The notes beneath the pieces were generated by a model. It saw only the letters and a list, made by a program, of their open reading frames with translations. It searched no databases and had not been told where the DNA came from. Positions 9,609-10,730 of a stretch of 64,000 nt of DNA are shown here, piece by piece. Where the stretch lies: positions 26,784,001 through 26,848,000 of the forward strand of contig OX597836.1 in assembly GCA_951406725.2 (NCBI GenBank). The letters are read 5' to 3'. Each line of letters starts with the position of its first letter. Positions within the stretch are counted from its first letter, which is position 1. Both the position numbers and the translations under genes were made by a program. This DNA is from Octopus vulgaris. Lineage: Eukaryota.

Positions 9609-10730
9609 ATGGATTCTTCAAGAGACATTGCCAAAACAGAGATGTCTGCAAACATCCTGGAAATTCCGTTTGATTTGAAGATGAGTTCTAGCCGAACCAT
9701 TCGGTCGAATAAGACTGCAGCAAACAACTTCCGAGAATATCTGAGGGAGAAAGGATTTAACGAGAAGTTTGAAAACTTTGATGTACCAACATTGAACAAG
9801 AGTCTTGGAAATTTCTACATCGATGCCAGGCAGGCTGATGGCACTCACTATAAAGTGAACTCTTTAGAAAACTTTCGATATGGATTAAACCGATACTTGA
9901 GGTCAGCACCTTATTTTAGAAAAATTGATATTATCAAAGATAATGAGTTTTCCGATGCCAATCAGTTTTTCAAGGCAGCGATCATGGAATTGAAAAGACT
10001 TGGTAAAGGCGATGTCGAACATCATCCAGTGATAACAAGTGCCGACCTAAAGTCTTTGTATGAATCTGCTTACTTTGACCCGAGCACACCGGCCGGGTTA
10101 TTGAATAAGGTTCAGTTTGACATACGCATGTATTTCTTTCGACGGGGAATGGAAAACATGTCCAAAATGACGAAATCGACATTTGCCGTCATGAAGGATC
10201 CAGAATCTGGATTGAAAGTTGTTGTCAAAGTGGATGAGTTTGGATCCAGTCCGAAAGAGAACCAGTCTGAAAGCATAACTGGGGTTATGCCGGAGTCAGT
10301 GGGCAGCCGTTTGTGTCCGGTGAAGTCGTTTCAACTGTATCTGAGTAAACTCCATCCGGACTGCGACAGACTTTGGCAGAGACCAAGAGAGAATTCATTC
10401 TTTGATGATGACATCTGGTACTGTCGATCTGCTGTTGGTGAGAAAAACTTGGCCAAATTCATGTCTGGTCTGAGTAGAACATGCTCTCTGTCCAGAACGT
10501 ATACTAACCATTCAATAAGAGCTACTGGGGCAGCCATTCTACGGAAATACTTTGAATCAAATATGATAATGGCTGTGATGGGACAGAAGTCAGCTTCTTA
10601 TCTCTCTGGCTATCAGCGTATTAGCAACAAGGACAAGATCTCCATGGGGCAGGCAATTACAGCAAACCTTTGCAGTGCAGAATCGTCTGCAGACAACTCG
10701 TTTGCAGACGAAGAGAAAAATACACAACAG
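9609..10730 (+). CDS. Coding exon 1: tyrosine recombinase / DUF3504-like domain (374 aa)
   Basis: Non-repetitive ORF with motifs [11 protein letters not shown]...SL...[32 protein letters not shown] and MGQKS...GY, typical of Crypton YR/DUF3504 proteins. Donor CAG|gtaagg at 10730/10731. In-frame TAG upstream at 9579. Confidence 0.9.

What the first reader, a model, noticed from the sequence alone, without database searches (positions are those of the whole stretch)
10140..10613. Recombinase active site is almost intact: R179, H301-x-x-R304 and Y335 retained, box II His replaced by Gln326
Seen: FFRRGME (Arg), TNHSIR (HxxR) and [12 protein letters not shown], with Tyr nine residues after the Gln, the same spacing as His333/Tyr342 in lambda Int. 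Known: tyrosine recombinases use an R-K-H-R-H/W-Y set. No obvious catalytic Lys hairpin could be placed by eye. Inference: this is either an attenuated enzyme that can still nick or form a phosphotyrosine, tethered to a dimerising BTB, or a recently disarmed DNA-binding module. A host-encoded site-specific recombinase or topoisomerase-like activity in a cephalopod would be new.
Basis: partly seen in the sequence, partly recalled or inferred. Interest (0 to 1): 0.72.

Follow-up and report, generated by a model that had tools for sequence, protein, structure and literature searches.

The report
Disarmed transposon recombinase in octopus gene
Octopus and cuttlefish keep a gene whose front half came from a jumping gene's DNA-cutting enzyme, but it long ago lost the lysine that such enzymes need to cut, so it most likely grips DNA as a regulator rather than recombining it.

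Summary
It is the first coding exon of a six-exon, 953-aa gene joining a Crypton-derived tyrosine-recombinase domain (DUF3504) to a ZBTB-type BTB, matching O. bimaculoides XP_014773042. The site is not 'almost intact' where it counts. The strand 2-3 loop lysine, K in 105 of 106 otherwise complete relatives, is Ser here and Gly in the orthologues, and that loop is the least conserved block of the domain. In Cre this lysine and the tyrosine are the two indispensable residues. His-to-Gln is the milder change: 3 relatives carry it and keep the lysine. Catalytic positions are kept no better than other family-conserved ones (5 of 7 against 41 of 45). Both losses are shared with cuttlefish-cluster orthologues, so disarming is old, while the domain is 75-84% conserved. 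Best reading: a domesticated, cleavage-dead DNA clamp resembling Cre K201A, convergent with vertebrate KCTD1b but independently derived. Residual nicking is not excluded (about 12%). No assay or pocket geometry was available.

The parts
9609..10730 (+). Coding exon 1: whole Crypton-derived tyrosine-recombinase (DUF3504) module, 374 aa, no intron; phase-0 GT donor at 10731
   Evidence: residues 26-355 identical to O. bimaculoides XP_014773042 (330 of 330)
9684..10028 (+). N-terminal core-binding (clamp) domain, residues 26-140, helical bundle
   Evidence: model helices H4-23 to H88-106; 82-84% identical to orthologues P0002, P0003
10143..10154 (+). Box I: R179 and E182, retained
10236..10265 (+). 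Strand 2-3 loop (residues 210-219) that carries the general-acid Lys in intact relatives; position 213 (10245-10247) is Ser
   Evidence: K in 105 of 106 relatives; loop lies between strands 203-207 and 226-228 and has pLDDT under 50; least conserved 15-residue block among orthologues, 7 of 15
10440..10481 (+). Helices 278-291 ahead of HxxR, the likely major-groove (helix J-like) contact; assignment inferred from fold
   Evidence: K279, K283, R290 basic in all four orthologue lineages
10509..10520 (+). Box II H301-x-x-R304, retained
10584..10586 (+). Q326 in place of the His/Trp, fixed in all orthologues
10611..10613 (+). Y335, the nucleophile position, retained
10626..10670 (+). C-terminal helix 340-354, at the place of the subunit-docking helix of Cre-like recombinases (role recalled); retained here, not recognisable in the two paralogues
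   Evidence: 9 of 10 invariant at 341-350; paralogue sequences
26951..27032 (+). Coding exon 2 (linker, 82 nt)
29238..29329 (+). Coding exon 3 (linker, 92 nt)
30496..30644 (+). Coding exon 4 (linker, 149 nt)
32818..33094 (+). Coding exon 5: end of linker and first part of the BTB
34617..35756 (+). Coding exon 6: rest of the BTB (PF00651), Gln-rich low-complexity tail, stop

Best explanation
A CryptonA transposon's recombinase ORF became the first coding exon of a BTB gene before octopods and cuttlefish split. The lysine loop decayed and the box II His became Gln, which switches off efficient strand cleavage, while selection kept the two-domain clamp, its basic DNA-facing surface, the phosphate-gripping R179/H301/R304 and the C-terminal helices. 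[quoted passage not shown] Shown here: gene structure, fold class, residue pattern, orthology, strong conservation. Inferred: that position 213 is the general acid, loss of cleavage, DNA binding, BTB dimerisation, looping.
For: Six exons with AG/GT ends give one open 953-aa frame matching a RefSeq Octopus protein; Logan proteins of 926-966 aa hold both domains on contigs of at most 4568 bases. K at column 213 in 105 of 106 relatives that have the other six residues; S or G in the four orthologue lineages; P0003 has no Lys anywhere in 209-222. Loop is the least conserved block (7 of 15) and disordered in the model. Catalytic positions kept 5 of 7, other family-conserved positions 41 of 45 (Fisher p 0.18): no sign of special selection on catalysis. 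YR halves 75-84% identical to orthologues, more than the BTB (70-72%) and far more than linker and tail (17-24%). 42 Lys/Arg positions stay basic in all four lineages. In Cre, Lys201 and Tyr324 are the two strictly needed residues, while Arg173 and His289 also serve bending and synapsis in non-cleaving sites, seen in the K201A structure (PMC2943603). The other BTB-fused forms (P0008, P0287, P0199, KCTD1-like P0221) and an oyster fusion also lack this Lys. In the closest paralogue a DUF3504 N-terminus is interchangeable with THAP, CENP-B, Psq and other DNA-binding domains on one BTB.
Against: No DNA-binding or cleavage data. Y335 and the helix around it are kept, whereas both paralogues and all human DUF3504 genes lost the Tyr; this fits packing or synapsis but also residual chemistry. 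The Lys assignment rests on family conservation and position between two strands, not on a residue-level superposition: profile alignments to Cre and lambda covered only the C-terminal part. K216 (3 of 4 lineages) and K207 (4 of 4) remain nearby. Cre K201A and K201N keep weak in vivo activity. Only three 90% clusters of orthologues were found, so the conservation tests are coarse. The best Foldseek match is QRICH1 in a coregulator complex, which points to protein binding as an alternative use.
Confidence: 0.65

Rival explanations
1. Attenuated or regulated enzyme: Y335 still attacks DNA slowly, with R179 plus water, a repositioned K216 or K207, or a partner's lysine activating the leaving group, giving site-specific nicks or a phosphotyrosine adduct.
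For: R179, E182, H301, R304, Y335 invariant in 4 of 4 orthologue lineages with native spacing; Gln at the His position occurs in 3 relatives that keep the Lys; Cre K201A/N/R show weak in vivo activity (PMC2943603); the loop is unresolved in the model, so its geometry is open.
Against: At 155 of 210 invariant positions, five given positions all stay invariant about 22% of the time by background alone (0.74 to the fifth power), more for core positions. The loop differs in length and sequence between orthologues; K216 is Asn in P0003 and sits in a column that is already Arg or Lys in 80 of 105 intact relatives; K207 is Lys in 48 of 105 of them, beside their own K213. No Lys201 substitution recombined in vitro.
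Confidence: 0.12
2. Protein-interaction scaffold: the YR fold is used mainly to bind other proteins or other factors already on DNA, as QRICH1 does in the Zincore complex, with little sequence-specific binding of its own.
For: Top Foldseek hit is QRICH1 in 'Zincore (SEPHS1:QRICH1) binding to ZFP91 on DNA', E 4.8e-9; Kojima and Jurka name protein-protein interaction as one of two likely uses of DUF3504.
Against: The model's two-domain arrangement fits DNA-bound Cre better (TM 0.63, Z 17.6, rmsd 3.3) than QRICH1 (TM 0.38, Z 13.9, rmsd 17.1), though the deep alignment of intact relatives may bias it that way. The protein has no other DNA-binding domain and keeps the phosphate-contacting residues and 42 basic positions.
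Confidence: 0.2
3. Not a host function: a live or recently inserted Crypton copy in an intron, joined to the BTB gene only by gene prediction.
For: The YR sits in one intronless exon and read-through, YR-only products ending just inside the intron are on record (P0010, P0269, P0277). Crypton ends are hard to see (PMC3212892).
Against: One copy in the window; orthologues form a 100/100 clade with short tips; 330 of 330 YR residues equal O. bimaculoides while the tail differs (287 of 297); fused products in three separate clusters; two catalytic changes shared across lineages.
Confidence: 0.03

Closest known systems
CryptonA tyrosine-recombinase transposons (Kojima and Jurka 2011, PMC3212892; Glomhopper, PMC13465315)
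   Same: Whole YR module, up to about 55% identical to mollusc-type relatives; Cre-like fold; R, E, HxxR and Y kept; single coding exon.
   Different: Lys and His II lost; spliced in frame to host exons; conserved as an orthologue across octopus and cuttlefish.
Vertebrate KCTD1 isoform b (DUF3504 + BTB)
   Same: Same layout and route: a Crypton YR in one exon placed ahead of a BTB gene.
   Different: BTB class differs (PF00651 here; PF02214 plus KCTD1/15 C-terminal domain in the KCTD1-like P0221). A tree forcing the two YRs together is rejected, p-AU 0.0002. KCTD1 lost Arg II and the Tyr; this protein keeps both.
Other domesticated DUF3504 genes: KIAA1958, ZMYM2/3/4, WOC, QRICH1 (Zincore)
   Same: Host regulators built from a Crypton YR; QRICH1 is the top Foldseek hit.
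   Different: All human ones lost the Tyr and second Arg; they are far more diverged (15-17% identity to QRICH1 in the fold searches); different partner domains.
Cre K201A (engineered mutant)
   Same: Works-like model: R, E, H, R, Y present, general-acid Lys absent; binds and synapses without recombining (PMC2943603).
   Different: Cre is a phage enzyme at about 11% identity; here the change is natural, comes with His-to-Gln and a BTB, and no binding site is known.
Crypton YR in an ATF7IP intron (zebra finch)
   Same: Host-selected Crypton YR; proposed as a possibly active fusion, so a host-held YR with catalytic residues is not without precedent.
   Different: That ORF is described as intact, with no fusion transcript seen; here the fusion is on record and the Lys is lost.
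Octopus LOC106877732 / LOC115209932 (paralogue)
   Same: Related BTB (62% identical) with the same split; its longest isoform also starts with a DUF3504 domain.
   Different: Its YR keeps only HxxR, and it has many alternative N-termini; no such alternative exon was found in this window.

Membership tests
Tyrosine recombinase superfamily (fold) | Core-binding plus catalytic domain of lambda-integrase type | tested here: met
   Model pLDDT 92; Cre Z 17.6, rmsd 3.3, 265 aligned; XerA, XerH, IntI4, lambda Int follow
Active tyrosine recombinase | R-H-R-Y tetrad with box I acidic residue | tested here: met
   R179, E182, H301, R304, Y335 with native spacing
Active tyrosine recombinase | General-acid Lys in the strand 2-3 loop | tested here: not met
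   Column is K in 105 of 106 complete relatives, S/G here and in orthologues; placement by alignment and model strands, not by superposition
Active tyrosine recombinase | His or Trp nine residues before the Tyr | tested here: not met
   Gln in all four lineages; tolerated position by PMC2943603
Active tyrosine recombinase | Covalent 3'-phosphotyrosine and strand exchange on a defined site | not testable with these tools
   Needs biochemistry
CryptonA transposon (mobile element) | Stand-alone YR ORF with complete catalytic set | tested here: not met
   Spliced in frame to five host exons; two catalytic changes
CryptonA transposon (mobile element) | Dispersed copies in the genome | tested here: inconclusive
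   One copy in the 64 kb window; no whole genome held
Domesticated DUF3504 gene | DUF3504 domain above the Pfam cut-off | tested here: met
   36 bits against 29.7
Domesticated DUF3504 gene | Orthologues conserved across distant species inside a longer host protein | tested here: met
   100/100 clade; 75-84% identity in the YR; fused products in three clusters
Domesticated DUF3504 gene | Catalytic site not preserved | tested here: met
   Lys and His II lost, but by a different pattern: Tyr and Arg II kept, unlike the human genes
Domesticated DUF3504 gene | Expression as mRNA | tested here: inconclusive
   RefSeq model and full-length Logan products on short contigs imply spliced transcripts; direct read check gave no cover of the exon
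KCTD1 orthologue | T1-type BTB (PF02214) with KCTD1/15 C-terminal domain, and YR of the KCTD1 clade | tested here: not met
   PF00651 only; one clade rejected, p-AU 0.0002

The most novel reading that the evidence does not exclude
A host-encoded, BTB-oligomerised tyrosine recombinase of octopus and cuttlefish that holds two DNA sites in a pre-cleavage synapse and can be licensed to cut when a lysine is supplied by a partner or by loop rearrangement, giving programmed nicks or rearrangements in a cephalopod genome.
Probability: 0.1. Interest if true: 0.85.

Novelty: new variant of a known kind. Interest (0 to 1): 0.4.

Why it matters
It adds an independent Crypton domestication, in coleoid cephalopods, that arrived at the same YR-plus-BTB layout as vertebrate KCTD1b with another BTB class. 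Because it is still about half identical to intact relatives and lost the general acid rather than the nucleophile, it is an unusually clean case for asking what a domesticated DUF3504 domain does, a question Kojima and Jurka left open, and for testing whether a natural K201A-like recombinase can loop DNA. The comparison also suggests that the Lys loop is the usual early loss when these enzymes are tamed. It is not evidence of a working host recombinase.

Tried and rejected
Direct splice of the YR exon to the BTB exon: out of frame, stop at once; my first scan for linker exons missed all three real ones because its filters were too strict. RNA check: 19 of 24 listed runs hold the exon but no RNA holder was listed on record; laying four runs on 8900-11400 gave no cover over the exon and was swamped by a repeat near 10855-11010; uninformative either way. 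Whole-genome copy count: no genome held. Residue-level placement of the Lys against Cre and lambda Int by profile alignment: only the C-terminal part aligned, at low probability (14% and 4%); the PDB sequence search likewise matched only box II. Folding an intact relative (P0012) alone failed, pLDDT 36. Homodimer prediction of the YR domain: no answer, score 0.04 against a mark of 0.32, alignment not used. K216 as a substitute Lys: Asn in P0003 and an inherited basic column; rejected as unlikely, not excluded. One origin for the three cephalopod-type YRs (window group, P0008, P0287): neither shown nor rejected, p-AU 0.13. The 76-row tree finished only as a quick tree; the 9-row BTB tree is poorly resolved. 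dN/dS could not be computed: no orthologue DNA. Six paper searches found no description of this gene; three look-ups of earlier scan findings returned nothing.

Full report
1. Observation. The frame from the ATG at 9609 holds FFRRGME at 176-182, TNHSIR at 299-304 and [12 protein letters not shown] at 324-335, so R179, H301, R304, Q326 and Y335 are as described. E182 is also kept, three residues after R179, which fixes R179 and not R178 as the box I Arg. Translating int, cre and xerD from fetched records gave spacings H-R, R-H/W, H/W-Y of 3, 22, 9 for lambda Int and 3, 23, 9 for Cre and XerD; the window has 3, 22, 9 (the residue numbers of these enzymes were recalled or taken from PMC2943603 and checked against the translations). 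Pfam calls the exon DUF3504, E 8.9e-9. An AlphaFold2 model from a 114-row alignment has mean pLDDT 92; it matches Cre at Z 17.6, rmsd 3.3, 265 aligned residues, with Xer, integron, Tn1549 and lambda integrases below; Foldseek ranks QRICH1 first and Cre next.

2. The gene. The BTB lies 22 kb downstream. A direct splice is out of frame. A cluster look-up gave O. bimaculoides XP_014773042 (962 aa), which maps to six exons: 9609-10730, 26951-27032, 29238-29329, 30496-30644, 32818-33094, 34617-35756. All introns are GT-AG, and 1 combination of the nearby splice sites tried gave an open frame: 953 aa. YR residues 26-355 are identical to the O. bimaculoides protein (330 of 330), the BTB too (115 of 115), the tail less so (287 of 297). 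The window is therefore from an Octopus close to that species (inference). Fused proteins of 926-966 aa with both domains are on record from Logan contigs of at most 4568 bases (P0002, P0003); the P0002 cluster holds a Sepia pharaonis protein. That these contigs are spliced transcripts is inferred from their length and from YR-only read-through forms that stop just after the same kind of donor. The window protein, P0002 and P0003 form a 100/100 clade. Identity to them is 82-84% in the N-terminal YR domain, 75-79% in the catalytic domain, 70-72% in the BTB and 17-24% in linker and tail. The YR is the best-conserved part of the protein.

3. The missing lysine. Of the 317 stored proteins compared, 206 covered the domain and were aligned with the query; I set aside 19 rows of YR-BTB host proteins (query included), leaving 188. 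Of these, 106 have the six non-Lys active-site residues, and 105 of the 106 have Lys in one column of a DELTKNH-like motif (the other has Arg), a column on which they were not selected (first seen on 123 proteins). That column is S213 in the window and G in P0002, P0277 and P0003, with a one-residue length difference. In the model it lies in a loop (210-219, pLDDT under 50) between strands 203-207 and 226-228, the place of Cre Lys201 (PMC2943603). It is 31 residues after E182, against 20-25 in lambda Int, XerD and Cre. The assignment is inferred from conservation and position; I had no coordinates, and profile alignments to Cre and lambda did not reach this region. Among four orthologue lineages 206-220 is the least conserved of 22 blocks (7 of 15). 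K216 is Asn in P0003, which has no Lys in 209-222; K207 is invariant but also Lys in 48 of 105 intact relatives beside their own K213.

4. Do the kept residues point to catalysis? Of 52 columns conserved in at least 85% of the 106 relatives, 46 are kept in all four lineages. Catalytic: 5 of 7. Others: 41 of 45. Fisher p 0.18 (six of the seven catalytic columns are conserved in that set by selection). Background invariance over 141-350 is 155 of 210, so five chosen positions staying put is unremarkable (about 0.22). Gln at 326 occurs with the Lys intact in 3 relatives, and the matching His-to-Gln change costs vaccinia TopIB only modest activity. In Cre, only Tyr324 and Lys201 are strictly required; no Lys201 substitution recombined in vitro, though Ala, Asn and Arg had weak in vivo activity. 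The same paper reports that Arg173 and His289 also hold the bent DNA in non-cleaving sites of the synapse, seen with the K201A mutant, and that R173K is defective in synapsis. So the kept residues have non-catalytic jobs. Against my reading: Y335 and the last helices are kept (12 of 15 and 9 of 10 invariant), whereas paralogues P0008 and P0287 and the human DUF3504 genes lost the Tyr.

5. Mechanism. Best reading (0.65): an old domestication; cleavage off through loss of the general acid; clamp, basic surface (42 positions Lys/Arg in all four lineages) and C-terminal helix kept for binding, bending and perhaps pairing DNA sites; BTB for dimerisation and co-regulator recruitment (BTB roles and the docking role of the last helix are recalled). 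Supporting context: in the paralogue LOC106877732/LOC115209932 a DUF3504 N-terminus alternates with THAP, CENP-B/Tc5, Psq and another HTH domain on one shared BTB, which suggests the slot is used for DNA binding. Rivals: protein scaffold like QRICH1 (0.2), attenuated enzyme (0.12), unexapted transposon (0.03). The age (before the octopod-decapodiform split, some 270 million years by recall) rules out 'recently disarmed'.

6. Known relatives. Kojima and Jurka showed that DUF3504 is domesticated Crypton YR and that KCTD1 isoform b is a single-exon DUF3504 ahead of a BTB. The octopus gene is not KCTD1: its BTB is PF00651, the KCTD1-like P0221 has PF02214 and the KCTD1/15 C-terminal domain, and joining their YRs is rejected (p-AU 0.0002, 28 rows). 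It works like a domesticated DUF3504 regulator and belongs to that kind; it fails two membership features of an active recombinase. The same paper already proposed a possibly active host-held Crypton YR (ATF7IP intron, zebra finch), and the Glomhopper paper proposes exapted copies with full sites. Octopus THAP-BTB and CENPB-BTB proteins are noted in PMC10027918, which does not mention Crypton or DUF3504. Six searches of the open library found no account of this gene; subscription papers are not covered.

7. What I read. PMC3212892: parts 1-5 of 7 of the text, no figures, no supplements (its Additional files 4 and 5 list DUF3504 genes and may bear on novelty, though they predate cephalopod genomes by recall). 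PMC2943603: abstract, sections on Lys201, Trp315, Glu176 and the first part of the Discussion. PMC13465315, PMC10027918, PMC13538652: passages only. The Zincore paper: only its title in a reference list and a PDB title. Others: search listings only.

8. Verdict. Residues confirmed, 'almost intact' not. A real, conserved, apparently undescribed coleoid domestication of a Crypton recombinase, convergent with KCTD1b, most likely a non-cutting DNA clamp. New variant of a known kind; interest 0.4. A working or licensable host recombinase has about a 10% chance and would deserve 0.85.

Noticed in passing
P0008, P0261, P0263-P0265, P0279-P0282, P0302 (LOC106877732 / LOC115209932; not in the window): A paralogous locus with RefSeq isoform labels up to X32 puts different transposon-type N-termini (DUF3504, THAP, CENP-B_N plus Tc5 HTH, Psq, HTH_29, one without a Pfam match) on one shared BTB part, in Octopus, Argonauta and Sepia. 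It looks like an inverted mod(mdg4)/lola-style locus (comparison recalled). PMC10027918 noted only the THAP and CENPB fusions. Possibly more interesting than the present finding.
   Followed up: partly
P0199, P0293 (Logan, unnamed): A further YR plus PF00651 BTB protein whose YR groups near the KCTD1-like YR, not with the window's, while its last residues resemble those of the paralogue above: possibly the same BTB host gene capturing a different Crypton.
   Followed up: partly
P0005, P0305-P0318 (Magallana oysters): DUF3504 fused to a PLP-dependent serine-dehydratase-like domain, cluster of 107 members; Lys replaced by Glu and His301 by Gln, with R, E, R, H, Y kept. Another independent domestication that lost the Lys.
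   Followed up: partly
P0006 and P0007 (Haliotis rubra, H. asinina): The same zinc-finger gene model begins with a YR that keeps six of seven residues in H. rubra and one of seven in H. asinina: erosion caught between two congeners, or a gene-model artefact.
   Followed up: no
window 10731-10796 and 10837: Reading through the first donor ends at a stop at 10794-10796, with a polyadenylation-like hexamer at 10837. YR-only read-through products are on record for orthologues and paralogues (P0010, P0269, P0277, P0283, P0284); a short isoform without BTB is possible but these may come from DNA or unspliced RNA.
   Followed up: partly
window 9120-9608: A strong acceptor at 9120 and nine short upstream ATG frames (4-23 codons) before the start at 9609; if this is one exon, the 5' leader is long and rich in upstream ORFs.
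   Followed up: no
window 52661-53356 (+): Decayed mariner-type transposase (Transposase_1, E 3.2e-24) with stops upstream.
   Followed up: partly
window 10855-11010: Very high-copy short repeat just inside intron 1 (summed contig depth in the tens of thousands); similar text recurs across the window, likely a SINE.
   Followed up: no
window 47041-47388 (-): Degenerate short-period repeat with an open frame of 115 codons made of repeated FEAT/FKAT-like units; not examined.
   Followed up: no
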